A stretch of 63,682 nt of DNA, counting the filler, from Sphacelaria rigidula (lineage: Eukaryota), in NCBI GenBank assembly GCA_964200075.2. It is 9 parts of 9 records of this genome, joined end to end, with 100 filler letters (N's around TTAATTAATTAA, not from the genome) between each part and the next. Parts side by side here need not be neighbours in the genome. Positions count along the whole stretch, not along the records: positions 7,089 to 14,076 come from CAXNAA020017068.1; 8 more parts are not named here. One strand, written 5' to 3'. The translations under genes and the position numbers were made by a program. The notes under the pieces are model-generated. The model worked only from the letters and a program-made list of their open reading frames with translations. It did no database searches and was not told the DNA's origin. Below, piece by piece: positions 6,989-56,696 of the stretch (the first letter of the stretch is position 1; each line of letters starts with the position of its first letter).

Positions 6989-7088
6989 NNNNNNNNNNNN
7001 NNNNNNNNNNNNNNNNNNNNNNNNNNNNNNNNTTAATTAATTAANNNNNNNNNNNNNNNNNNNNNNNNNNNNNNNNNNNNNNNNNNNN
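6989..7088. other. artificial contig linker
   Basis: N44-TTAATTAATTAA-N44 (stops in six frames). Confidence 0.98.
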
Positions 7089-7097
7089 AGAAGGTTT

Positions 7098-7281
7098 CAC
7101 ACCTTGGACAATATATGGTCAATAGTTGCAATAGACAAGAAACGTACTGCATAAAGTATAGGCCTATTGCGGTATTTGTCGGCCGGTATTTGTCGGCCGG
7201 CAATAGTTGCAATAGGCCCATACTTTATGCAGTACATTTCTCGTCTAATGAATCTTTTGACCGTATGTTGTCCAGGGTGTG
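7098..7281. mobile_element. MITE with 8-bp TSD (hAT/P-type), inserted in a minus-strand SINE A head
   Basis: TIR CACACCTTGGACAATATATGGTCAA / TTGACCGTATGTTGTCCAGGGTGTG; exact TSD GAAGGTTT at 7090-7097 and 7282-7289. The flank 7282-7320 is the reverse-complement SINE A head. Confidence 0.85.
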
Positions 7282-7351
7282 GAAGGTTTCGAGGTTACCG
7301 ACTGAGCCACCGGGGCGACCGGATTGCTGTACGTGTACGTACAAGGTAGTA

Positions 7352-8133
7352 TACGTCGATAGCACCACATCCCGTCCGCTCTGTGGAGTTAAGCGGCGTC
7401 GGGTCAGGATAGTACTACAACTATGGGGGACCACGTGGGAAGCCCTGGCGCTGTTCCATTTTTTGTATTGGTTGGTTCTCCATCTAGCGCACCGCGCACA
7501 GTCACTCACCTTGGTCCACCTACCTTCTACCTAGCTGTATGTTCAGTAGATCATCGTAGATCATCGTAGATCATCGTAGATCATCGTAGATCATCGTAGA
7601 TCATCGTAGCTCTTCCCTCCGAAACAGTAGTTTTTAGACCCATATATGCGTGAGTGGGAAAACGAGCCTCTGCTGTCGTTCCAATCGTCTTCACATTTGA
7701 AACCGTTCCGGTATCTGCGCAATACTTCAATACTTCCTCTGTACAACAAGAATAGATCAATACAAAAAAGGAACAGCACCAGGGCTGCTCACGTGGTCCC
7801 CCACCGTAGTACTAGCCTGGCCCGACGCCGCGTAACTTCACAGAACAGACGCGATGTGGTCCTCCAAAATAACAGTTTTTAGACCCATGTATGCGTGGGT
7901 GGGAAAACGAGCCTCTGCTGTTGTTCCAATCATCTTAACATTTGAAACTGTTCCGGTATCAGCGCAGTACTTCAATACTTCCTCTGTACAACAAGAATAG
8001 ATCAATTCAAGAATAGATCAATACTAAAAAGGAACAGCTCCAGGGCTTCCCACGTGGTCCCCCACCGTAGTACTGGCCTGGCCCGACGCCGCTTAACTTC
8101 ACAGAGCGGACGGGATGTGGTGCTATCGACGTG
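7352..8133. repeat. foldback with ~115-bp inverted arms and an internal ~245-bp tandem duplication
   Basis: 7353-7470 is the reverse complement of ~8018-8132 and partly of ~7758-7860; 7615-7860 is duplicated at 7861-8130. Confidence 0.8.
7546..7609 (+). repeat. 10-bp tandem repeat (GTAGATCATC)x6
   Basis: Perfect units, read directly. Confidence 0.95.
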
Positions 8134-8797
8134 GTATGGCCGTTCCTGGGGGAAGACGGCACTGTTGTCATTATATACACAACAAGCGTGTGCGTTCTGC
8201 TGTTTTTTGGCCCATGTCAGTCGCCGTGTTCTCCAATGGTGGCCCTTCACACAGCGGAACAACTACACTTGTGATTTTGGCAGGAAGTCTAAGGATCATA
8301 GCGTGCTTAGATTTGAACATGTGCTCTCTACGACAGTATCGTAGCTGTACTGTATGTAGTTGAAGGATTGATTCGCTTAACTTCACACGGCGGAACAAAT
8401 ACAGTTATGATTTCGCATAAATTTCGATCTCTTTTTGTTCCCATATTAAGCCCTGTAACGAGTTCCCATTTTTCAGGACCCCCTGTTACTAGTTGTGGGC
8501 ATATGGTACGTGAAATGATCACGTGCTATTTGCATTGCAAGTATATACATTCATGTATTTCATGTCTATACATAGGAATGGATGATGATTAGACCTCTGT
8601 AGACAACACAGCCTCGTCCCCAGGAATAGGAGGGTTTAAAAGTGTCGCAATAAATCAAAGCCGGATAAAAACACGTCACAAAACGTTAGCGCTTCGCCGC
8701 TGTGGGTGCGTGCCTCAACTACATGGGTGGTACAGCAATGACACTGTCGTGGAGAGCACAACATGCGCAAATACGACCGCGCTATCCATGCTCCGTC

Positions 8798-9979
8798 TGT
8801 TCAGGAAGCGAACAGTTCGCCAATTGAACCAGTGAGCACTCACTGGTTCAATTGGCAAACTGTTCGCTTCCTGAACAAAAATATATGCTATGTAGTCAGT
8901 CCCGGCATCACACATCAGTGATCTCCTGGGCCCCTTGCCCCTTGCAAGCCTCACTGTTCACATGTCAAACTCATTCCTTCTACAATCGATCATGCCGGGA
9001 CTCGAACCGCATATCTTTTGTTTAGGAAGCGAACAGTTAGTCCATTTGAATCAGTGAGCGCTCACCAAGTGACTCAGTGGTGGAGTTATTTTCAGTTCGT
9101 ATCTTCCGGCGCCTTCTCCGGGTTGCCCCTCGCCAACGCTGCCGAGGTGATCAGGGTGGGCGTAGACGCTGACATCTTTCCACGACAGTGGGAACGACCT
9201 TTCCGCGACGAGGGGAAAGAAGAAGTGATCGCGCCGAGAATCGAACTCGCTCTTTTGTTCACGAAGCAAACAGTTTACCCATTGAACATGTGAGTGGGCG
9301 CTCACTGTCTGGTTCAATGGCCAAATGTCCGTTTGTGGAACAAGAGGTCGAGAGTTCGAGTCTCTATACGATCGATTGTCAGGGGAAATTAAAGTGTGAA
9401 CAGTGAGGCATGCGAGGAGAAAGGGGCCCCGGACATCACTGACGTGCCATGCCGGGACGGACCACACAGCATATCTTTTCTTCAGGAAGCGAACAGTTTT
9501 CCCATTGAAACAGTGAGCACACAGTGAGCGCTCACTGGTTCAATGGGAAAACTGTTCGCTTCACACGCGGCCATTCGGCTACCCCCATAAACAACTCTAT
9601 CGCGATTTTCATCCGCTCGAGGGTAAAGCGACCCTCCGGAGGATAAAAATATCCTCTGAAGGGTATTTCATACTCAGTTCCGGTCACAAAACGAATCCTC
9701 TGAAGGGCATCTGATGCTCCAGTGACTTTTGAGGTCTGAATTCCTCCAGAGTAACAAAAAAGATGGTGCTCTGGAGGGCCGCGCATCCTCCGAGTTTCTC
9801 CAGAGGGTGCGCGGCCCTCCAGGGGTAAAACAAGCCTCTGGAGGCGTTCGATCCCATCCCTCTGGAGGGCCGCGCACCACGCAGAGGCGTTTAATTCCTC
9901 TGGAGGCTCGAAATTTTGACCGGAACAGAGTATTTTTGAGGGTAGCCGAATGGCCGCGTGTGTTCCTGAACACTGAACA
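8798..9979. mobile_element. modular element of palindromic tRNA-like repeats with TGT...ACA ends
   Basis: Palindromes TGTTCAGGAAGCGAACAGTT...CAGTGAGC(G/A)CTCACTG...AACTGTTCGCTTCCTGAACA at 8798-8877, 9019-9065 (half), 9256-9342 and 9479-9972 (interrupted). Spacer 8878-9018 is inverted at 9343-9478. Flanks CCGTC / TCGTC. Removing the block restores an older repeat that is inversely homologous to 8110-8365. Confidence 0.7.
9562..9962. mobile_element. CACAC-terminal MITE with 2-bp TSD (CMC/EnSpm-like), nested in the palindromic element
   Basis: TIR CACACGCGGCCATTCGGCTACCC; TSD TT; many internal CCTC(T/C)GGAGG(G) motifs. Removing it restores AACTGTTCGCTTCCTGAACA. Confidence 0.85.
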
Positions 9980-10531
9980 TCGTCTTTTTGCCCAAAATCA
10001 CATCTGTAATTGTTGCGTAAACTGAAGTGTCACCATAAGAGGTCACTGCGAGCGACACGAGCCAAAAGGCAACATACGGACATTACTGTGCATGCAGTGT
10101 ATACAATCACAATGATGCGCGTGTTCAACAGCGACGGCCATACCTCGTCAATAGCCCTCCATTTGGGATTCCGTGTTAATCCTTGTCACCACCGCATGTG
10201 CTATCATTGCCATTACTGCAACATGTCTACACGAAGACACTCGTTCTAACTGACTTTTCTTGTCTCCCGTGTATGCTTTTGCATTTTATATCGTCCTCTA
10301 GTGGCTGCGACTCGAATGACACGCAAAAAACACCTCCTCCTCTACTCCAACCCCGAGTCATCCAGTGGCGGCGGGGGAAAATGCTATGACCGAATGTTGT
10401 TCGAAAACAGCCGCTCGGGACCTCGCTCGAGACCAGTACAGAGCACCTGAAAATGTACCTTTTTTTGTCAATATTGAGTGACATGTCGATAGCGTAACGA
10501 CGCGTACACTGGAATGACGTGTTCCAGAGAC

Positions 10532-10714
10532 CACCGCGCCCCGGTAATCCAACGGCACAGTCAAGACTACTTACCAGGTCGGATAACGTGAGTTCGATTC
10601 CCGCTAAATGGGTTCCGTTTGGATTTTTATCCGCCAAGTGTCTGATGTCCCTCATTGAAAACATGATGACCTGAGTAATAGTAGCAGCAATACTGTGTTT
10701 AGAGCTGAAATAAC

Positions 10715-10789
<75 letters not shown>

Positions 10790-10950
10790 GCTGAGTTTGC
10801 TTGACAGAGAGTTGTCGCCGTGCGGGTGTGCTGATGGTCATTATCCAATCCGTGGGACCAAAAATGCAAGGGGTGTACCCGAACTTGGGGAGATATCTTT
10901 CAACCCCTCGAGACAATGGACTCGTCCGGAGGAAGGGGATGAGTTAGAAG
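10532..10950 (+). mobile_element. tRNA-headed SINE (different head, shared core) with internal (AAT)n expansion
   Basis: Head CCGCGCCCCGGTAATCCAACGG ... GAGTTCGATTCCC; core GAGTTGTCGCCGTGCGGG...CCAATCCGTGGG; 3' block GGACTCGTCCGGAGGAAGGGG shared with 38297-38354(-) and 55915-55970. Confidence 0.6.
10709..10788 (+). repeat. (AAT)n microsatellite
   Basis: About 26 units; explains the poly-I and poly-Y ORFs. Confidence 0.97.
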
Positions 10951-11419
10951 TGTTACCTAGAAGCAATTAAAAGATGAAAAAACGTGCTGGACTAGGCCAC
11001 CAATGCGATACTTACGAGAGGGTCAAGACGGATGACGCATCCATTGTGCATGACGTGACACGCATGTTCAACATGTGTTACAAATCCATGATTTTCTACG
11101 ACGGTAGCTACATCCGCTGCTATTGGCTACCCCTAGACGGAAACTGTGTTGTAACGTAGGCCACGCTTGCTCAAGGGATAAAAAACTTGAAAAAGTCAAA
11201 AGTTAGTTCCTCTCAATTTTGTTTCTGTGGTCTCCCTCAGACGGTAGCTGAACGGTATACAGGTCCTGTTTTTTCCTAGACACTTTTTTTTCTTCTTGTT
11301 GCATTTTCATTCCCTCCCTTTTCCCGGGATGGGTCCGTCCGTGGTCTAAAGAAATCACTCTATCTATCTCCCAGTACACATACACGAGCATGTGTATGTT
11401 GATGAACGGTATAACACAC

Positions 11420-11544
11420 CTTTGGAGGCTCATGAGCACAAGCGCGGCGGCTCCATCATTGAGACTGGACGCATTGGCCGCAGTTACGGTCCCTCCCTCT
11501 TTCTGGAACGCCGGCCGCAGGGCACCGAGCTTTGCCAGATCGAT
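11420..11544 (-). CDS. acetyl-CoA C-acetyltransferase (thiolase, ACAT/ERG10-like), single internal exon
   Basis: tag|[41 protein letters not shown](R)|gtgtgt; matches the thiolase LxPxF...[21 protein letters not shown] motif. Not captured by the ORF track. Confidence 0.9.
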
Positions 11545-11669
11545 CTATACATGCACCACGCAGCGTTTAGACGCACCAGCACATGCAACACAAAGAGTAG
11601 ACACCCATACGAGCACCGACAGTTCACTTACTTAGTAGCCTTTCCAACACGCGTAGTTTACCATGAGTC

Positions 11670-12358
11670 GGTCGCCACGGTGGCTCAGCTGGTAACCTCG
11701 ACCCCTCCTCACGGTTGGATTGTTGGTTCGAATCTCGGAGCGATCTGGGATTTTTTTCACACAATGCCCAACATTACAGTGGAGAGCGACTACCTCGTGG
11801 ATACACAACATTCGATATAGAACGATCGACGAGAGAAAGGGGCTGCTGCACCCCTCTCGTGATGAAAAATGAAGGCAAGCACCGCAGAAGGAAGGTGGAA
11901 AATTTCTCACACAATTCCCAACATTACAGTGGAGCGCGACTACGTCGTGATTACACAGCATTCGATAGAGAACGGTTGGCGAGGGGAAGGGACTACAGCA
12001 CCCCTCTCGCGATAAAAAATGAAGGCAAGCACCGCAGAAGGAAGGTGGAAAATTTCTCACACCATACCCAACAATACAGTGGAGCGCGACTATGTCGTGG
12101 TTACACGACATTCGACTTGAAACGGTTGACGTGGGAAAGGGACTGCTGCACCCCTCTCGCAATAAAAAATAAAGGGAAGCGCCGCAGAAGGAAGGTGAAA
12201 AAGTAAAAACAAACAAAAAAAGTAAAAACTCCTGTGTTGTTCTTTCTCCTGTGTGACCCCGAGTGGTGCGCTCACCATATATACCAAAAAGTGTACACAC
12301 TTGCGTCGAGAATAGATGGGACGAGAACACACACACACACACATACACATACACACAA
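11670..12358 (+). mobile_element. SINE family A with triplicated 150-bp core
   Basis: A box GGTGGCTCAGCTGGT and B box GGTTCGAATCTC; units start at 11758, 11908 and 12058; (CA)n tail. Confidence 0.85.
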
Positions 12359-12689
12359 CCATGCCAGCGTCTTTTTATTCATTTATTTATTTCTCGTCAT
12401 ATCGAGAACCCCCCCCCCTTCCTTCGGAAGATTCCGAGTCTCGAGGGGTCAACCAATCTACCTTCCTCCCGGTACTTGTGGACGCCGGAAATTTTGGCAT
12501 CGCAGATTCGACCAGCACTACTGCACCGCAGCCACGTTCGCCGAATTTTCTTGACTACTCACGTTCCCCGGTTCATGACGATGGAAATCGGATACGATAA
12601 CCTCCAGAAAAACGTACTGAAGTAAGTGTACATTCTGGGAATCGAACCCTACTTGTCCACCCCGACCGGGTTTTGATATGTACCATTTG

Positions 12690-13117
12690 ACAGCGGATTC
12701 TCAAAAATGGGGTTGAACACAAAAATTAGGTTCGACTCAAAAGCAGTGCTTTCCCTGACCTAAAGTAGTGGCAAATGATAAGTCATATGGACGACTTCAT
12801 CCCTCCCGACCTCCCTAAAACTATTTCGGGGGGTTTTTAGCCTTCCGTTCCCCCACAGGGTATGTGTGCGAAATCACACTTCCCCCTCGATTTCGGGGTG
12901 TGAAAAAAGGGGCGCTTTTTTGGCCCAAAAACCGTGCTTTCGCACATACTCTTTGGGGGAACGGAAGGCTAGAAACCCCCCGAAAGAGTGTTGGGGAGGT
13001 CGGGAGGGATGAGGTCGTCCATATGAAAGGCATTTGTCATGACTCTAGGTGAGGGAAAACATTGCTTTTGAGTTGAACCTCATTTTTTCTTCAACCCCAT
13101 TTTTGAGAATCCGCTGT
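12690..13117. mobile_element. foldback MITE (~200-bp arms), probably Tc1/mariner-type
   Basis: ACAGCGGATTCTCAAAAATGGGGTTGAA ... TTCAACCCCATTTTTGAGAATCCGCTGT|TA (left flank TG). A related end lies at 21265-21332. Confidence 0.85.
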
Positions 13118-13773
13118 TATTTTTTATTTAGACCACCGGGCCGAGGAGGCGAGTTGCGTTACACATGTTGCCGGTGGGTTGTCTACCCAGGGTCGATCTA
13201 AAGAAGCTTGGCGTCGGAGGGGTTAGAACGCTCGCGCAGGAAAAACCAAAGGATTCACAGTCCAAGAATTCAAACACACAGACAGAAACAGAGACAGACA
13301 CACAGACGCATGGACATCAGCAACACACTTACTTACCCCTTGCTTGCTCGCGAAGTCGTCATTTTGGTAAAGGTATACGTCTCCTAGGCCTTCATTCACT
13401 TCTGTCTGAAATTTCTTCAGTCGTGATGCCGTGTATATGGCACGTCGCTTGGTGTCACCATTGTCGGGAGGTTGGGCGTTCCGAAGACAAAACATGCGTA
13501 CGGTTTTGCGGAGCTCTCTACGAAAGGAGGCAGCAAAAGCAGTCTTTGTCTTCTTATTCAATCGAAGTTCTTGACGGAGAACAAACTGATCCATCACACC
13601 ACATCATATATATGCCCATACTAACCCCAATCTTATCGTGTATGCATATTTTAATGTTGTGGCAAAATGCCATTTTATCATATTGAGGAAGTAGACACCG
13701 AGCGTGTACCAGTCATTGGAGCGTTTGTGGCTTTCGATTTATGAAGACTGTATACGCACATTCCCACAGAACC

Positions 13774-14076
13774 GGTCGCCCCGGTGGCTCAGTTGGTAAC
13801 TTCACATCCTTCTAGTGGTTGGGTTGTGGGGTTCGATTCTCGGAGCGTTCTGGGATTTTTTCTTACACCATGCTCAACAGTGGAGAGCGACTATGTCGTG
13901 GGTACACACAATTCGACTTTACAGTCGACGAGGGACAGGGACTGCTGGACCCCTCTCGCGATAAAAATTAAAGGCAAGCACCGCAGAAGGAAGGTAGGTC
14001 ACTAAAAAACAAATAAAAAATAAAAAGCTCCTGTGTTGACCTTCCTCCTGTGTGACACCGGTTGAGGCGCCCACAT
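13774..14076 (+). mobile_element. SINE family A, cut by contig end
   Basis: Same head, T6 run and core as 2008-2372. Confidence 0.8.
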
Positions 14077-14176
14077 NNNNNNNNNNNNNNNNNNNNNNNN
14101 NNNNNNNNNNNNNNNNNNNNTTAATTAATTAANNNNNNNNNNNNNNNNNNNNNNNNNNNNNNNNNNNNNNNNNNNN
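14077..14176. other. artificial contig linker
   Basis: N44-TTAATTAATTAA-N44. Confidence 0.98.
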
Positions 14177-14311
14177 TGGAAGAAACGTAATGAGCGCCAG
14201 AATGTTAGAGGTGTCTCTATTAGGAGTAGAAATGGTGCTCCGTTTCGAAAGGGATGCGTAGTCAGTGATCAAACGACTAAGCCAAGCAAAACATAAGTAC
14301 GCCCCACCCCC
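14177..14311 (+). mobile_element. 3' end of C-tract-terminated non-LTR retroelement
   Basis: ...TCGAAAGGGATGCGTAGTCAGTGATCAAACGACTAAGCCAAGCAAAACATAAGTACG followed by a C-rich tract; homologous to 33048-33354 and 46667-46732. Confidence 0.75.
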
Positions 14312-14420
14312 TCACTCCCCATTTCTCCCCTACGCGCAATAGTTTGCGCGTTTTACGGCTTCACCATGGAGTGAGATCACGAGTAGTTGTCACGGGTACA
14401 GATGCAAAGCCCCGTCGGCT

Positions 14421-15720
14421 TCAAACTGCTTTACCAAATGCCCGTATGACAGCATAACGTAGCATATCAAAACCGAACGCCCAAGCCTCACCCTCGTACC
14501 ACTCGCGGGGTATATCTCGCTGTAGCGTGCCGCGCGAGTCATGGGTATCTCGATGAAGTCGATCCCCCAGAACAGTGTCCCCGGGAACTTCTTCACCACA
14601 GCTCTCCGTCGAGACGGCTTTTGCGATTAAAGCACAGACCACATTTCGCGCTTCGTCTCCCGTGGCCGCTTCCTCTTTAGTTTGTGGCGAAATGTACCCA
14701 CTTTTTGCCAAAGAGTCAACACCTTCTCGTTTTGTATATTCTCTTGCGTGACATCCCCTTGCCAGAAGCGCTCGAACCAATTCCCTCGTGGATGCCCACT
14801 CCCTCGCCACAGCGAGAGATGCCAAGCCGACAGAGCGCAGAGTCAGCATATCGCACGCATCCTTTTTCCCTACTGCCTCTGACTCGAGTTTGTCTTCCCC
14901 CCAACCGCCGCCCCCGTAGCCGCCGATGGTTCTCGAACTCAAGCCGGTGTCGCAGGATGATGGCGTCGTGGCGTCGGTGATGTACCCAACGCAGTTTCCA
15001 TGTTCGTGGCGTTGCTGATGAACCGAGGCTGTCGTTTCCATGTTCAGCGATCTCGGGTGTTCTGCGCTGAGAGTAGCCATTCCGTATGGTGAATCGTGCA
15101 AGCTTTGCGTCTGCCCTCCCAATATCATCATGTCGACGTTTTTCCGGCGTGTGTGTATCTCTGTTACATGATCATCTTCCTCCCCCGGATCGAGATCATC
15201 TTCCTTTCCTAACCCAGGAAACACGCGGTTGAGGGAGGGCCTGTGTTTCGCTTGTCGGCCCCATGTCCATAGCTTCCTGGTGCCTTTTGCATTTTTTCCT
15301 GGGACACTACTATTACTGCTATACCGACCTCTGGCTTCTTCCAGTAGGGTCTGGTAGGTGACCGGAAGGGTAAAATATCTCCTCCGTTTTCGTCTTGGTG
15401 TTCTTGTTCGGCTTTTTCTGGCGTACACTTGCTGAGGATCTATTTGCGCGCTATCGTAGTCTTCTAGCGATAGTCGCTGTATCCCGTCTTTGCCTGCGAC
15501 GGCCGAGTTTTCGACAGGTTCACGACAGGTAGAGGCGTGGAGAGCGTCAGGTGGATGTATTCCAGCCCCATTCACACCGACAATGAGAAAATATCTCCAA
15601 ATGAGGGGTTGATAACGTTCCGACAAGGTGGCAAGGGACGGATACATGAGAAATTTGTCGCTATCCGTACTTTTTAGGGAGCGTAATACTGGGATAGGAA
15701 ACTCTGCATATCGATACTGG
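14421..15720 (-). CDS. putative large terminal exon of an unknown protein
   Basis: 408-aa ORF whose frame stays open to ~15750; possible acceptor ttgtccag near 15720. No recognisable domain, and the join to the upstream exon is unresolved. Confidence 0.5.
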
Positions 15721-15725
15721 ACAAA

Positions 15726-15961
15726 TGCCGAGATAGCCCCCCCACAAAAAGTGTATCAGCACCATCCAACGAACCGGCTGAAATCTCACTATTGGGCTCG
15801 TTTACAGCAATTTCGCCCACATGAGAGGCGCGTAGCAGTCCGAAATCAGCTATAACGCCCGAATCAGTCGCGTCGTGCAGCACGAAACCCGCTTTAACGG
15901 CAGTTATGATTATCGCCTCCGTGCACATTTTCGGCCGGTTCGGGGGGGGGCTATCTCGGCA
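15726..15961. repeat. inverted repeat / possible MITE
   Basis: Perfect 18-bp IR TGCCGAGATAGCCCCCCC plus an inner imperfect arm CGAACCGGC(T/C)GAAA. Confidence 0.6.
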
Positions 15962-16311
15962 GCAGTCACTGACGATATTTTGACATGTATCAAAGGATGA
16001 ATCAGGAGCAGCACTCGTCGTGCCCTTTGAAGTTATTCAACGATGGATAATAAGAGGTGTCCTGGAATATTTCCCGTGGAGGGGTGTTGTAGCATCTCGG
16101 TTTAGCTTCAATTACCGAGCCTTAAGGCAACGTACGTGCTACGCGGTTCTTCGACGCGAAGAGGGAGCGGGATTAATAGAATTCGTCGGAGATGAAAAAA
16201 TATGCTTTCGATTCTTACAGAACGCGACAGAGAAAAAATACCATCTTTCCTTGAACGATCCTTCCGTTTCCCTTCCGAACTGTCAGGCGCTATATGTTGC
16301 CGTGCACTTAC

Positions 16312-16591
16312 CTATTCCTTCAAAGCGTGCATACGTCACTCGAATCGTGATGCCCTTTGCTACTCTCATCAGAGACGAGCAAAAGTAAATTCCAGTGACA
16401 TGCGGCACGACAGCATACGGTCGACCCTCTGCCGCCAGATGTGACACGAGCGTGTCGGTTGACGCGATTTCGTGATGGACACAGTTACTGTCCTTCGCCA
16501 TGTCGCGCGCGAGTTTCGAGATACCAGGTACCACATAGGATTCCACATCAGGAAGTAAGTCAAATCCTTTCGGCGAGAGCTTCCAGCATAG
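16312..16591 (-). CDS. putative internal exon of an unknown protein
   Basis: cag|LCWKLSPKGFDLLPDVESYVVPG...RVTYARFEGI G|gtaagt; open for 280 nt; phase 0 acceptor matches the donor at 17204. Confidence 0.55.
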
Positions 16592-16715
16592 CTGCTTGTG
16601 GGTTACCCATGGTCAGCGCAAGAGGGATGGACGGGACGGGTGGGCGGGGGCGGACTTTGTGGTCTGTTCAGCTATTCAAATGTCAAGACTGGCTGGCTAT
16701 CCTAAGCTCTCGGTT

Positions 16716-16886
16716 CACGCCTCATAAATTTGGATTTCGATCACCGAAATATTTGGGTCCTAGGTCGGAAACCAATTTCGGAACCATTTTGGCGTCGGTT
16801 CGGACACCCGAAATTCCCCAGAATTGGTTTCTCACCTCCTAGGACCCCGACATTTCGGTGATCGGAATCCAAATTTCTATGGCGTG
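16716..16886. mobile_element. hairpin MITE (~170 bp)
   Basis: CACGCC...AAATTTGGATTTCGATCACCGAAAT...GGGTCCTAGG pairs with CCTAGGACCC...ATTTCGGTGATCGGAATCCAAATTT...GGCGTG. Confidence 0.8.
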
Positions 16887-17203
16887 TAGCAATTGACAAT
16901 AGGTATCAGTAGGTGAAGAAATCGAACCATATTTCGAAGATTTGGTGTGGATACGAATATTTTAATTCTCCGGGTTTCTCATCCCCCCCAAAAGATCCAT
17001 CCCCAGTTTGTAAGATCCCGTGTTCATAGCCGACGCAGGCAAATAACCGGGACCCGGAGGTGAAAAGTGCGCTACGATACTGTACATTTCATAGATCAAC
17101 AAGTTCTGTCATTTTAATAGTCTACCTCATTGGAACAGCAAAAGTTGTACTTCGAACACAGTAGCACATGTACGACTTGCTACAATAGATAGAAGACAAG
17201 CAC

Positions 17204-18028
17204 CTGTGCGCCATGAACCCCATCGGGTGCAACGGCATTGTCCACGTCAGCAAGACCAACACACTCTGACAGATCAAAAGTTGGTCCATTCAGAGGGCAC
17301 TCGACCACAGCTCCTGGAAACTTGCAGTATATCCCAAGCCTCGACTCTATCTGGCTACCGTGGCGGTACCCATACCCCCAGAAACTCTTCTTGGAGTTGC
17401 TGAGAATTCCGTTGGTTATCCCACCGCCGCCTTCATAACGAGACATTGCACTGCGGCCGTAGGGATCTGCTAGGTGATTATTTGCCTCCTCGAGAAAATT
17501 TGCGAAGCGCAGAGTGCGTGGCGGTGCTCGGATTGCGAGCACTCCACCGTCGACGTGTGAAGGGGCTGGCGGGGCGCGGTTGCCTTCGGCCGTGTGGTTA
17601 CAGTGCGAAGTCGAAACCACCGCCAAAGCGCACTTTCCGATCACCGCGTCTTGCATGCCCGGTATCTGGCTGTGCACTTCGCGTGTAGAAGACACCACGG
17701 GGATGCGCAATCCTCGGCCAACGGCCTCCCAGCTGGGGGTTGACGGCGTTCGCCCGTCCCAGTCTTCGTTGTATGGTTCGTATTGCTCTGGCGGCCGTTT
17801 TTCGCTGTTGTTCACGACGAATCCGCCGAAGGTGCTTCTACCCTGCACAGGCAGCGACGGTGATGTTTTCGCCCAGTATTTGTGCCCGCTACCGGCACCA
17901 CCAGTTGAGGTGGTCTTCCCCAGCAGTCTGCCGGCAAGAGCCGATCGAACAGCATGCTTCCGGCTGGTCGTGGGCGAAGTATGCGGAAACAACACCCCGC
18001 TCATGTTTGCATTCACGCTACGCAAGGT
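17204..18028 (-). CDS. putative large exon of an unknown protein
   Basis: ~275 open codons ending ...DGVHGAQ|gtgctt; 5' boundary uncertain (in-frame TAG at 18029-18031 may be the acceptor). Confidence 0.5.
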
Positions 18029-19839
18029 CTAGGCCGCCGCGGGCACAACGATGTGGACGCAGCTGCTTTCTCGAATGGCCTTTACAATCCTATAGCTTCT
18101 CATGCTCCCGCCTTACCTACCGTAGAAAGTCCGCAATCCCGTTCCGTAGCCCATTTGCTACTTCGAGCCTGTTGTTCATCGATCACCAGCCAGCACACTT
18201 ACACCTCATGGCCTATATTTTGCTCCGGTTTTATGTGTGTCTTCGTGTTGACGGTACAGTATGTGTAGTGTCTGTGGAGAATGTTCGTGTGTACCGTGTA
18301 GCAACGGGTTAATGCCCTTCGCCAGTTTACAGAGCACTAAGTAATACCATACCAGGACATGCGTATCGGTACAGTCACTCAACCGTGGCAATGTACACCA
18401 TAGATTCGCCACGTGCACTGCAAACCGGCTAAAGATATTGTCTCTCCTGCTAACAAATGTCATACTCCAACACATCGTGTTATTTGAATACTCTGTCCCA
18501 CCTGATGTATATAGTGCGTGGATATCCCTCCTCTTTGCATTGGACGGCGCACTCTCGCTACCTCAGACCCAATCAACCAATGACACATCAATGAGTGCGA
18601 TGATGCTAGTGTTTGATTATTGACATTTTTTCTGCCGCCACCGTTTGATCGAAGGGTACGGCGCAGCCAGCGAGTTTCAAGCCTGCGGCCACATGCAGCA
18701 TGGTGGTCGGGGCACTAGCTGTATACTATGCTGTCTCACGAGCTTTGTTCTGTACTGAGAGGACGCAACTGAAGTAAACTAAGCCTTTTCCTGGGGACAC
18801 GCGCCGGACAACGGACATCTGTAAACCGCAGGAGGCACAGAACACAGAGAAATAGAAATACACACTAATCGAGGTGACATGATACAAGTTTTGTTGACGA
18901 AGGGAGGGTGCCGTGCATCACACAATGGCGATAAACAACGGAGGTGGCAACCAGGGGGGAGTGCTGTAATGAGCCGCGTTTGTCAAGTGGCGGAGCACGC
19001 GAAGTCGAGATGATTGGGATAGACAAGCAACGGCGATAGTGAGATTCACGAGAGAGCTGAGAAGGAAGACGTTAAACTCCGAAAGATCATCAGCAGCTGC
19101 GATGATTGAGGGCTGCTGACAGTAGGACTGGGGTTAGCGACGCTGAGGATCACCTTGGGTGAGCTCGCCCAAGTACACACTCCCGAGTGTGATACCTGGC
19201 ACGTGTAAGGTGAGGGATGGAAAAGGTAGCAGGGTGCTGTAGTGTTGATGCGGCTAGCGTGATGACAGGAGCACGCAGTAGAAGCTTGGCGCCTGGACTC
19301 TTCAGATTCGCAAATCAACTCCCGAGTGCCACGATTCTAATCGTGTCCTCACCTGTATAGCACGTACGTCTCGATTTCATGAACAGATGAGGTCCCATGT
19401 CGGCCTTTCTGTTATTGTAGCGTCTTGTGGATACGCACGTGACATTTTTAAGTGTTCTTGTTATTCGTCACAAGTAGTTTGTGCACTATAAGAGATGTCA
19501 TCAGGTGCATGGTAGGCTCGGCTCACAGCTCACAGTTGTGGTGCCTCGTGTACAAGTCGCCGTTTTGGACGAGCTACAGGAGGGGAAACTCCATATTTCA
19601 TTATTCTAGCCGCACGACGGCCGAAAGTGAACGTGAACACTCTGTAATCACCTGATGCCACACGAATGACGGATGGCTCTAAGCCTTCCTTCGATTTCGC
19701 GGTGGTTTCAGTCGTTGTCCAGAAAGTTGATGATTGCCAAGTTTGCAACTTGAGATATTTGTAATGAGCGCAGCATACTCTATACTTTTCCTGTTGTGCC
19801 GTGCAGATTCCGAAGGCCTCGTAGTCAGGGGGCAACTTA

Positions 19840-21164: not shown

Positions 21165-21264
21165 NNNNNNNNNNNNNNNNNNNNNNNNNNNNNNNNNNNN
21201 NNNNNNNNTTAATTAATTAANNNNNNNNNNNNNNNNNNNNNNNNNNNNNNNNNNNNNNNNNNNN
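21165..21264. other. artificial contig linker
   Basis: N44-TTAATTAATTAA-N44. Confidence 0.98.
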
Positions 21265-21805: not shown

Positions 21806-22055
21806 TTAAACTCGAGGTTCCCGATGAATTTAACAGTAATCTAGACACTGCGTCCGAAAATATGTGGAGACTTCGGAGATGCCCGAAAGCTCGTTAATGT
21901 TAGCCATAGAAGTATCTCAAAGTCGAGGTTCCGGGATATTTAACAGCAGTGATACACCATCAGATGTGGGGGGAACCTCGACTTGGAGACATATACTACT
22001 GTTGAATATACCGGACACCTCAAGTTTAAGATACTCCTTTATGGGCGGGCAGGCT

Positions 22056-22482
22056 CATACGCGGCCATTTGGCTATTCCCAAATATCCCTTCTACGCAAA
22101 AATTGACCCCTCCAGAGGGTTCGGACTAGCTTCCTCGAGGTGTTTAATCGCTCCACAGGGTGGATATAGGTGGATAGTATCCCTCTCCAGAGGGATTAAA
22201 CACCGCGAAAGGAATCGACTAAGCTCTAGAGAGATTATCATATACTACTAGCATTGTGTTGGATCCTCCAAAGTGCACATAACCCTTCTAGCGGGGCTTC
22301 ATCTCCTTCCGTCTAGAAGGGTGACTTTGTCTGGACGATTCCTCTAACGGCGTCTAATCCCTGTGGAGGGGCTTACTTTCCACCCTCCAGAGGGGTTTAA
22401 CGCCTCCAGGGTCTTTTTCCCCTCTGGAGGGGAAAATGTTCGTGAGGAGGGATTTTGGAGGGTAGCCAAATGACCGCGTGTG
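22056..22482. mobile_element. CACAC-terminal MITE, second copy, 2-bp TSD CT
   Basis: CT|CATACGCGGCCATTTGGCTA ... TAGCCAAATGACCGCGTGTG|CT; internal CCCTC(C/T)(A/G)GAGGG motifs as in 9562-9962. Confidence 0.8.
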
Positions 22483-24399: not shown

Positions 24400-24740
24400 T
24401 TCGCAAAGGCCTCGAACAAAAATATCGAGCCAAAGGTAAACTTTTGTTTTTTCGGGGGGGGGGGGGGGGGGGGGCGTGTTTAAAAAGAATGATTGGGGCC
24501 GTTCCTAAAAATTGGGGAAGAAGATTTTAATGAGTTTTTTTTTCCATCCCNNNNNNNNNNAGACAATGAAGTAAAGCCGAAAAGAAAAAAATTAGGGGTA
24601 AGTTTTTGTGGTTGGGTTGGGGGGGGGGGGGGGGGGGGGGAGGGCTTGTTTCAAAGGTAATGTTTGGGCGTTTCAGGACAAAGTACGAAGTCGATTTTCA
24701 TCATTTATTTTTTCGAGCCCGGAGAGCCCATTTTTCTTGA
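24400..24740. repeat. poly-G-flanked dispersed repeat spanning a 10-N scaffold gap (24551-24560)
   Basis: Motif CGAAGTCGATTTTCAT shared with ~58229-58244; long G runs on either side of the gap. Confidence 0.5.
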
Positions 24741-28252: not shown

Positions 28253-28352
28253 NNNNNNNNNNNNNNNNNNNNNNNNNNNNNNNNNNNNNNNNNNNNTTAA
28301 TTAATTAANNNNNNNNNNNNNNNNNNNNNNNNNNNNNNNNNNNNNNNNNNNN
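28253..28352. other. artificial contig linker
   Basis: N44-TTAATTAATTAA-N44. Confidence 0.98.
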
Positions 28353-35338: not shown

Positions 35339-35438
35339 NNNNNNNNNNNNNNNNNNNNNNNNNNNNNNNNNNNNNNNNNNNNTTAATTAATTAANNNNNN
35401 NNNNNNNNNNNNNNNNNNNNNNNNNNNNNNNNNNNNNN
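35339..35438. other. artificial contig linker
   Basis: N44-TTAATTAATTAA-N44. Confidence 0.98.
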
Positions 35439-42424: not shown

Positions 42425-42524
42425 NNNNNNNNNNNNNNNNNNNNNNNNNNNNNNNNNNNNNNNNNNNNTTAATTAATTAANNNNNNNNNNNNNNNNNNNN
42501 NNNNNNNNNNNNNNNNNNNNNNNN
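42425..42524. other. artificial contig linker
   Basis: N44-TTAATTAATTAA-N44. Confidence 0.98.
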
Positions 42525-44636: not shown

Positions 44637-44780
44637 ATCGAAAAGCTGTGGACGATCGCGAACATCGGTGGCCGTAACACGACAGATGTCATGTTCTCAT
44701 CCGACCCTTACAAAATGCTGCCCGCCAACCCGACCCACGTGCACTACAACGGCTCCCTCACGACCCCTCCGTGCACAGAG
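44637..44780 (+). CDS. alpha-carbonic anhydrase, exon 2 of 4 seen
   Basis: cag|IEKLWTIANIGGRNTTDVMFSSDPYKMLPANPTHVHYNGSLTTPPCTE|gtcagt; YxGSLTTPPCxE motif. Confidence 0.95.
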
Positions 44781-45065
44781 GTCAGTCAAATGTTACACAA
44801 TGAGGTGTGCACTATGAGGTAGCCATTGCTACGCCGGTTGCGTTACTTGTAGTGCCGCGGATGCACGTGAAATGTAGTTGTGGTCTTTGTGTGCAGGGCG
44901 ATGATCACCATTATACTGTTGGCCCATCTTTATCGCATTGGGGAGAAAGGATTAATAAAAACGTTCTGGAAGGACTGTCATAATCACTACCACCTAGCGG
45001 CACTACTTCACAAGGACTTGAACGAAGCCGCGGCTACACGGTCAGTAGAATGGGTGCTTTCCCCC

Positions 45066-49510: not shown

Positions 49511-49610
49511 NNNNNNNNNNNNNNNNNNNNNNNNNNNNNNNNNNNNNNNNNNNNTTAATTAATTAANNNNNNNNNNNNNNNNNNNNNNNNNNNNNNNNNN
49601 NNNNNNNNNN
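49511..49610. other. artificial contig linker
   Basis: N44-TTAATTAATTAA-N44. Confidence 0.98.
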
Positions 49611-56596: not shown

Positions 56597-56696
56597 NNNN
56601 NNNNNNNNNNNNNNNNNNNNNNNNNNNNNNNNNNNNNNNNTTAATTAATTAANNNNNNNNNNNNNNNNNNNNNNNNNNNNNNNNNNNNNNNNNNNN
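56597..56696. other. artificial contig linker
   Basis: N44-TTAATTAATTAA-N44. Confidence 0.98.

What the first reader, a model, noticed from the sequence alone, without database searches (positions are those of the whole stretch)
8798..9979. Modular element built from palindromes of back-to-back tRNA-like Pol III heads separated by spacers
Seen: four related ~80-bp palindromic repeats (8798, 9019 half, 9256, 9479) centred on CAGTGAGC(G/A)CTCACTG. Read outward from the centre, each half looks like a tRNA head: A-box-like TGGTTCAATTGG and a 5-bp stem/7-nt loop TGTTC-GCTTCCT-GAACA. In three cases a B box follows ~10 nt on (GGTTCGAGTCCC 9008-8997 minus, GAGTTCGATTC ~9248-9238 minus, GAGTTCGAGTCTC 9352-9364). 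Spacers are ~140 bp (8878-9018), ~190 bp unique (9066-9255) and ~135 bp (9343-9478, an inverted diverged copy of the first). The block starts TGT, ends ACA, is flanked by CCGTC/TCGTC and interrupts an older repeat cleanly. Established: TG..CA ends with a 5-bp TSD are the integrase-type signature (LTR/TRIM, Ginger2/Tdd); plant Cassandra TRIMs carry 5S Pol III boxes in their LTRs. Inference: an integrase-mobilised non-autonomous element with bidirectional tRNA-derived promoters that would transcribe each spacer convergently into short RNAs or dsRNA, with spacers invertible between palindromes. I saw no PBS/PPT or coding partner, so function is speculative.
Basis: partly seen in the sequence, partly recalled or inferred. 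Interest (0 to 1): 0.75.

Follow-up and report, generated by a model that had tools for sequence, protein, structure and literature searches.

The report
Arrayed miniature transposon with palindromic ends
This is a cluster of copies of a small, non-coding mobile element whose 80-base end-repeats are perfect palindromes built from tRNA-like sequence; the family is abundant in this alga or protist, it is an unusual variant of a known kind of element, and no function was shown.

Summary
Four related palindromes (one a half) separate three "spacers" at 8798-9562, and the TGT/ACA ends and CCGTC/TCGTC flanks are real.

Two corrections:
- 9563-9962 is an unrelated, very abundant 400-bp TIR element nested in the last palindrome arm.
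- Spacer 2 is not unique. It is a diverged, moderately repeated member of the same family.

Contigs of four public runs show single-copy flanks. The palindrome-plus-spacer unit has a summed depth hundreds of times higher, with sharp ends at the outer palindrome edges.

My reading: a ~300-bp non-autonomous element (palindrome, 140-bp internal part, palindrome), here as a four-repeat, three-internal array. It inserted once, with a probable 5-bp duplication, into a degenerate 5S-rDNA-associated repeat.

Each arm plus the adjoining spacer end has a tRNA-like layout: A-box-like motif, hairpin, T-arm/B box, T-run. Rfam finds no tRNA, and ARAGORN finds one only below its threshold.

An integrase-type insertion fits this one locus. 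No primer-binding site, polypurine tract or coding partner was found. Convergent Pol III transcription is untested.

The closest published architecture is the tandemly arrayed TRIM, and the element also resembles Ginger-type and foldback MITEs.

Verdict: a new variant of a known kind, of moderate interest.

The parts
8793..8797 (.). Left copy of the putative 5-bp target-site duplication (CCGTC)
   Evidence: Read. In the alignment with the paralogous older repeat, one extra 5-mer stands beside its near-copy.
8798..8877 (.). Palindrome 1 (terminal repeat): arms 8798-8837 and 8838-8877, starting TGTTCAGG and ending CCTGAACA
   Evidence: Arms 97% complementary and 95% identical when read centre-outward. 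DNA hairpin -43.6 kcal/mol, z -15.3. In runs X3 and X4, 51 and 41 contigs run into unlike sequence just behind 8877.
8878..9018 (-). Internal segment 1 ('spacer 1'). Its B-box/T-arm-like end lies at 8985-9018, with the B box at 8997-9008 on the minus strand. Its other end (8878-8911) is a degenerate inverted copy of that end.
   Evidence: The nhmmer head model reaches model position 68 on 8837-8907 (E 1.3e-11). Summed contig depth is 17,000-19,000 against about 22-24 for the flanks in X1.
9019..9065 (.). Half palindrome 2: a left arm (9019-9059) plus 6 nt of a right arm (9060-9065), then an abrupt break
   Evidence: Contigs from other loci join this arm to a complete right arm (joints 9022->9522 and 9038->9525).
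9066..9255 (-). Internal segment 2 ('spacer 2'): a diverged family member with a B-box/T-arm-like end at 9222-9255 (B box 9238-9248, minus strand) and no arm at its far end
   Evidence: The head model hits 9223-9296(-) at E 6.4e-21. Depth is about 700 in X1 and about 500-660 in X7. Identity to the other internal segments is 46-48% in a global alignment.
9256..9342 (.). Palindrome 3, degraded: arms 9256-9297 and 9300-9342
   Evidence: Arms 69% identical. Hairpin z is only -1.7. Run X3 contig 14 covers 9221-9473 with 3 differences.
9343..9478 (+). Internal segment 3 ('spacer 3'): an inverted, 75.5%-identical copy of segment 1, with its B box at 9352-9364 on the plus strand. Together with the preceding arm it gives the sub-threshold tRNA-like fold at 9304-9373.
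   Evidence: ARAGORN at -ps90 gives 2 hits in the whole window, and this is one of them.
9479..9562 (.). Palindrome 4: the left arm, an 11-nt internal duplication (9511-9521), the centre at 9529|9530, and the first 33 nt of the right arm
   Evidence: Hairpin -39 kcal/mol, z -12.5. Arms 95% identical.
9563..9962 (.). Nested, unrelated 400-bp TIR element (30-nt TIRs at 9562-9591 and 9933-9962, TSD TT or TTC). It is not part of the palindrome family.
   Evidence: Depth is 29,000-61,000 in X1, with unlike sequence beyond 9562 and beyond 9962/9963 in all four runs. A second copy lies at 22050-22482.
9963..9979 (.). The rest of the right arm of palindrome 4 (9963-9972, TTCCTGAACA) plus a 7-nt repeat of the terminus (CTGAACA, 9973-9979)
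   Evidence: The arm as rejoined in a script is 95% identical to its left partner. The parse that includes 9973-9979 in the block scores better.
9980..9984 (.). Right copy of the putative target-site duplication (TCGTC). The last 4 nt (CGTC) are identical to the left copy.
   Evidence: Contigs of X1, X3 and X4 run from 9937 to 10600 across this junction.

Best explanation
The block is a cluster of copies of one old, high-copy, non-autonomous mobile-element family.

Canonical unit. It is about 300 bp: an 80-bp palindromic terminal repeat, a ~140-bp internal segment, and a second 80-bp palindromic terminal repeat. A palindrome is its own reverse complement, so each end-repeat acts as both a terminal inverted repeat and a terminal direct repeat. 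Any two palindromes can therefore bound a mobile unit, and an internal segment can sit in either orientation.

This locus. It holds four end-repeats and three internal segments, which would be written 'L4I3' in the TRIM literature. The array entered a degenerate 5S-rDNA-associated repeat once, through a staggered cut that left a 5-bp duplication. The ends are TG...CA, which is typical of a DDE integrase or transposase supplied in trans. I think a DNA (foldback/MITE, Ginger-like) route is more likely than a cDNA (TRIM-like) route. Later, an unrelated 400-bp MITE landed in the last arm.

Origin of the end-repeats. Each arm plus the first ~30 nt of the adjoining internal segment derives from a tRNA-like sequence. 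Two such sequences are joined 5'-end to 5'-end at every palindrome centre.

Shown: the repeat structure, the abundance, the sharp ends, and the nested element.
Inferred: the single insertion with a TSD, the enzyme class, and the tRNA ancestry.
Not shown: any transcription.
For: Abundance and ends (Logan contigs of X1, X3, X4, X7 at 80% likeness):
- Flank depth is about 22-24 in X1. Depth is 12,000-19,000 over 8806-9051 and 35,600 over 9462-9543.
- Contigs run into unlike sequence exactly at 8798 (44-55 per run in X1, X3, X4) and at 8877 (41-51 in X3, X4). The consensus behind 8877 is random-looking (agreement 0.32-0.34).
- Joints 9014->8798 and 9014->8794 show an internal segment followed by a full palindrome at other loci.
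- Per-position depth over the palindromes is roughly 2-2.7 times that over the internal segments.

Local structure in independent data:
- X1 covers 8341-8967 with 0 differences.
- X3 covers 9221-9473 with 3 differences.
- X1, X3 and X4 cover 9937-10600.

Both block ends fall at the same arm position. The head model stops at position 44 for 8837->8796, and the last arm ends the same way once the nested element is removed.

Empty-site comparison with the paralogue 8180-8375: one extra 5-mer, GACGG beside GACGA.

The two ends of each internal segment are inverted copies of each other out to about 68 nt from the palindrome centres (E 1.3e-11 and 4.4e-11). The centre-to-centre unit folds as a ~70-bp-stem hairpin (-100.9 kcal/mol, z -10.4). 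This fits a TIR/foldback DNA element and not the PBS/PPT asymmetry of an LTR element.

Published parallels (passages read):
- Ginger1 elements have 40-270-bp TIRs, TGTNR ends and CCGG or CCGT 4-bp TSDs. TDD-4/5 make 5-bp TSDs (PMC2836005).
- Tandemly arrayed TRIMs (L3I2, L5I4, and one with two inverted TRIMs) are flanked by a single 5-bp TSD (PMC4717578).

tRNA ancestry:
- The T-loop TTCGA(G/T)T with 4-bp stems shows one compensated pair between units 2 and 3 (read).
- ARAGORN at -ps90 gives 2 hits in 63 kb, and one is 9304-9373.
Against: - The TSD rests on one locus. It has a mismatch (CCGTC/TCGTC) and a small score margin (161.5 against 158.5) against a 72%-identical paralogue.
- The fifth base of the terminus is C, not the purine of TGTNR.
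- No autonomous partner was found. No integrase, RT or transposase domain appeared in the 14, 88 and 29 ORFs scanned, and the three sets overlap.
- No copy outside the window could be read base by base, so the canonical 'palindrome-internal-palindrome' unit is inferred from summary tables of short contigs. No contig spans the array.
- Part of the unlike sequence before 8798 spells an internal-segment end (consensus ...GCATATCTTT). Some of those 'ends' are therefore junctions to diverged internal segments, not to unique DNA.
- The tRNA-like frame runs across the element's outer boundary (arm, then T-arm in the internal segment). That is awkward if the 40-nt arm alone is the recognised terminus.
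- Rfam's tRNA model finds nothing.
- X1 may be the sample the window was assembled from, so it is not independent support.
Confidence: 0.5

Rival explanations
1. A TRIM-like miniature LTR retroelement, a tRNA counterpart of Cassandra. The palindromes act as LTRs carrying a Pol III promoter. The element is copied through RNA and inserted by a retrotransposon integrase. The array is a tandemly arrayed TRIM.
For: - TG...CA ends and a probable 5-bp TSD.
- Terminal repeats that are also direct repeats. The size (~300 bp) is close to the ~280-bp maize SMART element.
- TRIM arrays with one TSD, including inverted ones, are published (PMC4717578, passages).
- This block lies 651 bp from a 5S gene.
- There are more than two palindromes per internal segment by depth, as solo LTRs would give.
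- T4-5 runs stand at four of the six internal-segment/palindrome boundaries.
Against: - No TGG-initiated primer-binding site lies within 5 nt of any palindrome, and no purine tract precedes the downstream repeat (read).
- The two ends of each internal segment are inverted copies of each other. LTR elements do not show this.
- The T-run lies before the downstream palindrome, so a Pol III transcript would carry no terminal redundancy (R) for strand transfer (inference).
- The palindromes flanking one internal segment are no more alike than others: 85-88% for 1 against 2, 67-81% for 3 against 4.
Confidence: 0.2
2. A tRNA-derived SINE. Its cDNA snapped back on itself at the RNA 5' end, which gave head-to-head palindromes centred exactly on tRNA-like position 1. 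The copies spread by LINE-mediated retroposition.
For: - The palindrome centres coincide with the 5' end of the tRNA-like frame, with the A-box-like motif, hairpin and T-loop at tRNA-like distances.
- Sub-threshold ARAGORN calls start at or within 4 nt of the centres: 8986-9060(-) and 9304-9373(+).
- Ordinary single tRNA-like relics exist nearby, at 13783-13851.
Against: - The block and family ends are symmetric (TGTTCAGG/CCTGAACA).
- There is no A-rich or simple-repeat tail, and the duplication is short.
- No LINE reverse transcriptase is in the window.
- The call at 8986-9060 appears only at -ps70, where the background is 3.4 hits per kb.
Confidence: 0.08
3. A functional Pol III small-RNA locus. 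Each palindrome is a bidirectional tRNA-type promoter, and the spacers are transcribed convergently into ~180-nt RNAs or dsRNA that feed silencing.
For: - The B-box/T-arm motif is kept in all three units although the rest has diverged, with one compensated stem pair.
- For 3 of the 5 heads that face an internal segment, a T4-5 run lies at the far end of the segment and none lies before it.
- The spacing of the A-like and B boxes is within the tRNA range (my count; box consensus recalled).
Against: - No expression data exist. No listed run is on record as RNA.
- Only one end of each internal segment keeps a good B box. The other end is degenerate.
- Copies differ from this locus by about 15-17% (about 30 differences plus 5 gaps in 210 nt), as expected of decaying transposon copies.
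- Hundreds of dispersed copies argue for a parasite rather than a gene.
Confidence: 0.07
4. Not a mobile unit at all: a local inverted duplication or small satellite-like array of an ordinary repeat that arose in place.
For: The array is roughly symmetric about 9299|9300. Units 1 and 3 are inverted copies.
Against: - Units 1 and 3 are only 75.5% identical, no closer than unrelated genomic copies are to this locus.
- The same palindrome-plus-internal architecture and the same outer ends recur in many contigs from other loci.
- The block interrupts an older repeat, with a candidate duplication.
Confidence: 0.05

Closest known systems
Tandemly arrayed TRIMs / SMART elements, and Cassandra (plant miniature LTR retrotransposons)
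   Same: - Tiny, with no coding capacity, and terminal repeats with TG...CA.
- A 4-6-bp (mostly 5-bp) duplication.
- Arrays of n+1 repeats and n internal segments bounded by a single duplication, including inverted pairs (PMC4717578, passages).
- Cassandra carries a Pol III gene-derived promoter and terminator in the repeat and clusters near 5S rDNA (PMC7215508, abstract).
   Different: - The repeats here are perfect palindromes of only 80 bp.
- There is no PBS or PPT.
- The ends of the internal segment are inverted copies of each other.
- The Pol III-like part is tRNA-like rather than 5S, and it straddles the boundary between repeat and internal segment.
- The host is an alga or protist, not a land plant.
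Ginger1 / Ginger2 (TDD) integrase-related DNA transposons and their non-autonomous derivatives
   Same: TIRs of at least 40 bp, TGT... ends like LTR elements, a 4-5-bp duplication, and a CCGT-like target in Ginger1 (PMC2836005, passages). The left flank here reads CCGT-C.
   Different: - The terminus is TGTTC, not TGTNR.
- No transposase-bearing partner is known.
- Only one duplication was seen.
- The papers I read do not describe palindromic doubling of the TIR.
Foldback elements and MITEs in general
   Same: - Short and non-coding, with hundreds of copies and long inverted repeats that fold into a long hairpin.
- They nest in and beside other small elements. The same 7-kb piece holds a nested MITE and a 430-bp foldback element.
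   Different: - The terminal module is itself a palindrome.
- The inverted repeat has a tRNA-like layout with a conserved T-arm.
- The superfamily is undetermined.
tRNA-derived SINEs
   Same: An A-box-like motif, a B box/T-arm, a T-run and a unit length of about 180-220 nt. ARAGORN calls one head just below its threshold.
   Different: - The ends are symmetric, there is no 3' tail, and the duplication is short.
- The units are joined 5' to 5'.
- Rfam's tRNA model is silent.

Membership tests
TRIM / miniature LTR retrotransposon | Two terminal direct repeats bounding a short non-coding internal region, under about 1-1.5 kb in all | tested here: met
   80-bp repeats flank 136-190-bp internal segments. 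A palindrome counts as a direct repeat as well. No Pfam domain was found in ORFs over the block.
TRIM / miniature LTR retrotransposon | TG...CA ends and a 4-6-bp target-site duplication, different at each copy | tested here: inconclusive
   The TGT/ACA ends are met. There is one candidate 5-bp duplication with one mismatch. Other copies could not be read.
TRIM / miniature LTR retrotransposon | A primer-binding site complementary to a tRNA 3' end next to the 5' repeat, and a polypurine tract before the 3' repeat | tested here: not met
   The sequence next to the palindromes reads AAAA(T/G)ATATGC or AAGAGG on the way in and ...CATATCTTTT on the way out. There is no TGG start and no purine tract. 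The T-arm-like stretch is in the sense orientation, not complementary.
Ginger / TDD integrase-type DNA transposon (non-autonomous member) | TIRs of about 40-270 bp with TGTNR termini | tested here: inconclusive
   The TIR is 40 nt (80 with its mirror). The terminus is TGTTC, so 4 of 5 positions fit and the purine does not.
Ginger / TDD integrase-type DNA transposon (non-autonomous member) | A 4-bp (Ginger1, CCGG/CCGT) or 4-6-bp (Ginger2; 5 bp in TDD-4/5) duplication | tested here: inconclusive
   One locus: CCGTC/TCGTC.
Ginger / TDD integrase-type DNA transposon (non-autonomous member) | An autonomous element with the same ends that encodes a Gypsy-integrase-like transposase | not testable with these tools
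   No genome is held. None was found in the window. The 18-nt terminus occurs only in this block.
MITE (generic) | Short, non-coding, TIR-bounded and high in copy number | tested here: met
   TIR and hairpin; depth hundreds of times the flank depth, with the tool's caveat that summed depth is not a copy number; no domains.
tRNA-derived SINE | A 5' head recognisable as tRNA-related, with A and B boxes | tested here: inconclusive
   - A good B box/T-arm is present in 3 of the 5 heads that continue into an internal segment. Those three are the sequences the profile was built from.
- An A-box-like motif is present in all arms.
- Rfam gives no tRNA hit at E<=10.
- ARAGORN gives none at default settings, one head at -ps90 and another only at -ps70.
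- In the raw frame counted from the centre, I found no paired acceptor or D stem.
tRNA-derived SINE | A 3' tail (A-rich, simple repeat or LINE-derived), asymmetric ends, and variable and usually longer duplications | tested here: not met
   The ends are symmetric, there is no tail, and the candidate duplication is 5 bp.

The most novel reading that the evidence does not exclude
A tRNA-promoter counterpart of Cassandra in an alga or protist. It would be an integrase-mobilised miniature element whose 80-bp terminal repeats are perfect palindromes made of two tRNA-derived Pol III promoter halves fused 5' to 5'. Each repeat would then be at once an LTR, a TIR and a bidirectional promoter. It could fire outward into both neighbouring internal segments and stop at the T-runs. 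Any pair of repeats could be mobilised together, which would explain arrays with internal segments in either orientation.
Probability: 0.15. Interest if true: 0.65.

Novelty: new variant of a known kind. Interest (0 to 1): 0.4.

Why it matters
If the reading holds, this family blurs the usual line between TIR and LTR elements. A palindromic end-repeat is both at once, so one recognition sequence can bound units in any order and orientation. That offers a simple route from a single miniature element to modular arrays. It would also be a second, independent case, after the 5S-bearing Cassandra, of a Pol III gene-derived promoter riding in the end-repeat of a miniature element, and again next to 5S genes. 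In practice, hundreds of 80-bp perfect hairpins are a source of assembly breaks, of possible hairpin small RNAs and of genome instability in this organism. If it is only a decayed foldback MITE, it is ordinary repeat annotation.

Tried and rejected
- Own genome: none is held.
- Copies elsewhere: the 18-nt terminus gave 0 loci in viral contigs.
  - It gave 17 single-match loci in metagenome contigs. All 17 were aligned to the 221-nt unit, and the best local score was 29, so I treat them as chance.
  - It gave 9 single-match loci in genome contigs. All have bacterial titles. I did not align them and judged them chance from the listing.
- Earlier notes of this scan: five look-ups, nothing.
- RNA evidence: no RNA holder is listed among the 11 runs. 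Expression is therefore untested.
- Rfam hits over the palindromes are microRNA-precursor models far below their gathering scores. They only reflect the hairpins.
- Centre-to-centre unit as the mobile unit (a TIR element ending CACTGG...CCAGTG, with CACTA-like or Transib/RSS-like 'CAC' heptamers and an A-rich block 27 nt away). I rejected it as the main model for two reasons:
  - Both block ends, and the recurrent ends in other contigs, lie at the outer edges of the palindromes, not at the centres.
  - The 27-nt spacing fits neither 12 nor 23 (the RSS spacings are recalled).
- The 80-bp palindrome as an independent mini-element inserted between unrelated sequences: individual palindromes have no direct-repeat flanks, and the tRNA-like frame continues into the internal segments.
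- Hammerhead or other ribozymes (retrozyme or Penelope-like): none at E<=10.
- Arm-to-arm homogenisation within palindromes: 95% within palindromes against 88-92% between palindromes 1 and 4. That is only 2 differences against 3-5, which is too few to argue from.
- Literature: searches listed no paper on palindromic tRNA-derived terminal repeats. I saw the listings and abstract starts only.
I reworded it.
Full report
WHAT IS THERE

- Palindrome 1 (8798-8877) has 39-nt arms that are 97% complementary.
- Palindrome 4 (9479-9562, continued at 9963-9972) is almost as good.
- Palindrome 3 (9256-9342) is degraded.
- At 9019-9065 only a left arm and 6 nt of a right arm remain.

As single-stranded DNA the palindromes fold as follows:

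| Palindrome | Energy (kcal/mol) | z-score | Shuffles as good |
|---|---|---|---|
| 1 | -43.6 | -15.3 | 0 of 200 |
| 4 | -39 | -12.5 | 0 of 200 |
| 3 | -14 | -1.7 | 10 of 200 |

The centre motif and the 18-nt outer terminus occur only in this block of the 63.7-kb window. They occur 9 and 5 times, against 0.09 and 0.06 expected. The three B-box-like motifs, the TGT/ACA ends and the CCGTC/TCGTC flanks are at the stated coordinates.

CORRECTIONS

1. 9563-9962 is a different element. It has 30-nt TIRs (9562-9591 and 9933-9962) and a 2- or 3-bp duplication (TT or TTC). It splits the right arm of palindrome 4, whose last 10 nt follow at 9963-9972. A second copy lies at 22050-22482.
2. Spacer 2 is not unique (details below).
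3. The window is nine 6988-nt pieces joined by 100-nt linkers (44 N, a 12-nt linker, 44 N). Only 7089-14076 is contiguous with the finding.

HOW COMMON IT IS

No genome is held. Scans of three public collections with the 18-nt terminus gave nothing, or single chance matches.

The informative evidence comes from Logan contigs of four public runs, laid at 80% likeness. The runs are labelled organism A, algae metagenome and protist metagenome, and they come from three studies. Summed contig depth:

| Region | Depth |
|---|---|
| Flanks (X1) | about 22-24 |
| 8806-9051, palindrome 1 to half palindrome 2 (X1) | 12,000-19,000 |
| Spacer 2 (X1) | about 700 |
| 9298-9379 (X1) | about 900 |
| 9380-9461 (X1) | 3,600 |
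| Palindrome 4 (X1) | 35,600 |
| Nested element (X1) | 29,000-61,000 |
| Palindrome 1 (X7) | about 2,200 |
| Internal segment 1 (X7) | about 640-860 |
| Spacer 2 (X7) | about 500-660 |

The tool warns that summed depth is not a copy number. I use it only to say 'hundreds-fold' and 'tens-fold'.

- X7 lacks the flanks but holds the family, at the depths in the table.
- Single contigs from other loci match 8798-9008/9014 at about 83-85%. The copies are therefore old and diverged.
- Contigs run into unlike sequence exactly at 8798 (44-55 per run in X1, X3, X4) and exactly at 8877 (51 in X3, 41 in X4).
- Behind 8877 the consensus is random-looking. Before 8798 it partly spells the end of an internal segment, so some of those contigs are junctions to diverged internal segments.
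- Joints such as 9014->8798, 9014->8794, 9022->9522 and 9286->9525 show that, elsewhere, internal segments are followed by complete palindromes and that half palindrome 2 has complete relatives.

No contig spans the whole array. These local junctions are covered:
- 8341-8967 in X1, with 0 differences;
- 9221-9473 in X3, with 3 differences;
- 9937-10600 in X1, X3 and X4.

X1 may be the source sample of the assembly.

ANATOMY OF A UNIT

I read each arm from its palindrome centre outward and aligned the seven arms. They share GCTCACTGGTTCAATGG, about 8 further nt, and then a 5-bp-stem, 7-nt-loop hairpin that ends ...GAACA.

In three cases the internal segment continues with AAAAGA..., a 4-bp-stem T-arm with loop TTCGA(G/T)T, and (G)CGATC. 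A profile of these three heads finds all seven arms:
- Two further arms (8837-8907 and 9518-9450) match out to model position 68 (E 1.3e-11 and 4.4e-11). The 'other' end of spacers 1 and 3 is therefore a degenerate inverted copy of the B-box end.
- The two outermost arms stop at position 44, which is exactly the block ends.

Every internal segment is thus flanked by inverted repeats of about 68-77 nt. The centre-to-centre unit folds into a long hairpin (-100.9 kcal/mol, z -10.4).

Spacers 1 and 3 are 75.5% identical. Spacer 2 shares only its B-box end and some patches, at 46-48% in a global alignment.

IS IT tRNA-LIKE?

- Counting from the centre, the T-loop falls at raw positions 54-58, and a G-C pair falls at 53/61.
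- An A-box-like motif sits at positions 7-18, or alternatively at 1-9.
- The hairpin sits two positions upstream of where an anticodon arm would be. This is my count, and the box and numbering conventions are recalled.
- Units 2 and 3 differ by one compensated pair in the T-stem.
- Against this, Rfam's tRNA model gives no hit at E<=10 on 3 kb or on 91 nt. ARAGORN gives none at default settings.

With lowered ARAGORN thresholds:

| Setting | Hits in the whole window | Relevant hits |
|---|---|---|
| -ps90 | 2 | 9304-9373(+), the head of unit 3 |
| -ps70 | 215 (3.4 per kb) | 8986-9060(-) appears only here |

At -ps80, shuffles of the array give 0.38 hits each.

I conclude that tRNA ancestry is likely and that a working tRNA fold is not present. 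An ordinary single tRNA-like relic at 13783-13851 (the other -ps90 hit; A box, B box, T6) shows what an unpaired head looks like here.

HOW THE BLOCK GOT THERE

The left flank (8715-8785) and the right flank (9992-10082) together match, in inverted orientation, one older repeat at 8189-8363.

I aligned that copy with the two flanks joined in a script. The block reads best as 8798-9979, with one extra 5-mer (GACGG beside GACGA on the aligned strand). That is a 5-bp duplication, CCGTC/TCGTC. The margin over a no-duplication parse is small (161.5 against 158.5), and the paralogue is only about 72% identical.

The older repeat carries 5S fragments. It lies just upstream of a 5S gene at 8029-8147(-), one of three 5S copies at 7339-8147.

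INTERPRETATION

The sharp, symmetric, recurrent ends, the high abundance, the lack of coding capacity and the candidate duplication make this a non-autonomous mobile element.

The simplest canonical unit is palindrome-internal-palindrome, about 300 bp. It explains:
- why the array starts and ends with whole palindromes;
- why palindromes outnumber internal segments about 2-2.7 to 1 by depth;
- why internal segments can lie either way round.

Published relatives (passages read):
- Ginger1 has 40-270-bp TIRs, TGTNR ends and CCGG/CCGT duplications. TDD-4/5 make 5-bp duplications (PMC2836005; see also PMC6839031).
- The array architecture has an exact published precedent in tandemly arrayed TRIMs: L3I2, L5I4, and one case of two inverted TRIMs inside one 5-bp duplication (PMC4717578).
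- Cassandra carries 5S-derived Pol III promoters in its repeats, forms arrays and clusters at 5S rDNA (PMC7215508, abstract).

I still place the DNA (foldback/MITE) route ahead of the TRIM route. There is no PBS or PPT, and the two ends of each internal segment are inverted copies of each other.

T4-5 runs sit at four of the six boundaries between an internal segment and a palindrome: 8877-8881 on the minus strand, and 9016-9019, 9253-9256 and 9476-9479 on the plus strand. This is compatible with ~180-nt Pol III transcripts from 3 of the 5 heads that face an internal segment. No RNA data were available, so this stays a hypothesis.

WHAT REMAINS OPEN

- Whether the duplication and ends are consistent across copies.
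- Which enzyme moves the family.
- Whether the arrays form during or after transposition.
- Whether anything is transcribed.

Five literature searches listed no description of palindromic tRNA-derived terminal repeats (listings only). bioRxiv supplements were not consulted.

VERDICT

This is a real, well-described structure. The integrase-type reading is plausible but rests on one locus, and the Pol III/dsRNA function is untested. It is a new variant of a known kind (miniature TIR/LTR-like elements), of moderate interest.

Noticed in passing
window 6989-7088 and every 7088 nt after (14077-14176, 21165-21264, 28253-28352, 35339-35438, 42425-42524, 49511-49610, 56597-56696): The window is nine 6988-nt pieces joined by 100-nt linkers (44 N, a 12-nt all-frame stop linker, 44 N). 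Neighbouring pieces need not be adjacent in the genome. A 10-N gap lies at 24551-24560.
   Followed up: yes
window 9563-9962 and 22050-22482: A very abundant 400-430-bp TIR element with 30-nt TIRs starting CACACGCGGCC and internal CCTCTGGAGGGCCGCGCA sub-repeats. The 2-bp flanking repeat is TT at one copy and CT at the other. Summed depth is 29,000-61,000 in X1 and up to 158,000 over 9708-9789 in the protist-metagenome run X7.
   Followed up: partly
window 7339-7457(+), 7768-7880(-), 8029-8147(-): Three 5S rRNA genes or pseudogenes (54, 42 and 104 bits) in a ~250-260-bp repeat. Isolated 5S fragments lie at 8245-8265 and 8374-8394, inside the older repeat that the block interrupts.
   Followed up: partly
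window 13783-13851(+): A single, unpaired tRNA-like relic (A box GGCTCAGTTGG, B box GGTTCGATTCTCG, then T6). ARAGORN calls it only at 90% of its threshold. Weaker T-arm-like motifs lie at 10587-10604, 11721-11745 and 12625-12651.
   Followed up: partly
window 12690-13117: A ~430-bp foldback element with nested inverted repeats: 84-nt arms at 92%, 74-nt arms at 77%, and 35-nt outer arms at 94%.
   Followed up: no
window 11746-12195 and 10709-10790: A 150-bp tandem repeat in three copies (82-86% identical) and a long (AAT)n microsatellite.
   Followed up: no
window 11428-11538(-) and 44637-44783(+): Isolated exon-sized matches to Thiolase_N (E 4.8e-14, last 36 profile positions) and to eukaryotic carbonic anhydrase (E 3.7e-06). 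The thiolase exon lies 1.4 kb from the block, so the block may sit in an intron or next to that gene. No other exon was found in the piece.
   Followed up: partly
window 7095-7284 and 7549-7610: A 190-bp near-palindrome (91-nt arms, 81%) right after the linker, and a 10-nt unit (GTAGATCATC) repeated six times between two 5S copies.
   Followed up: no
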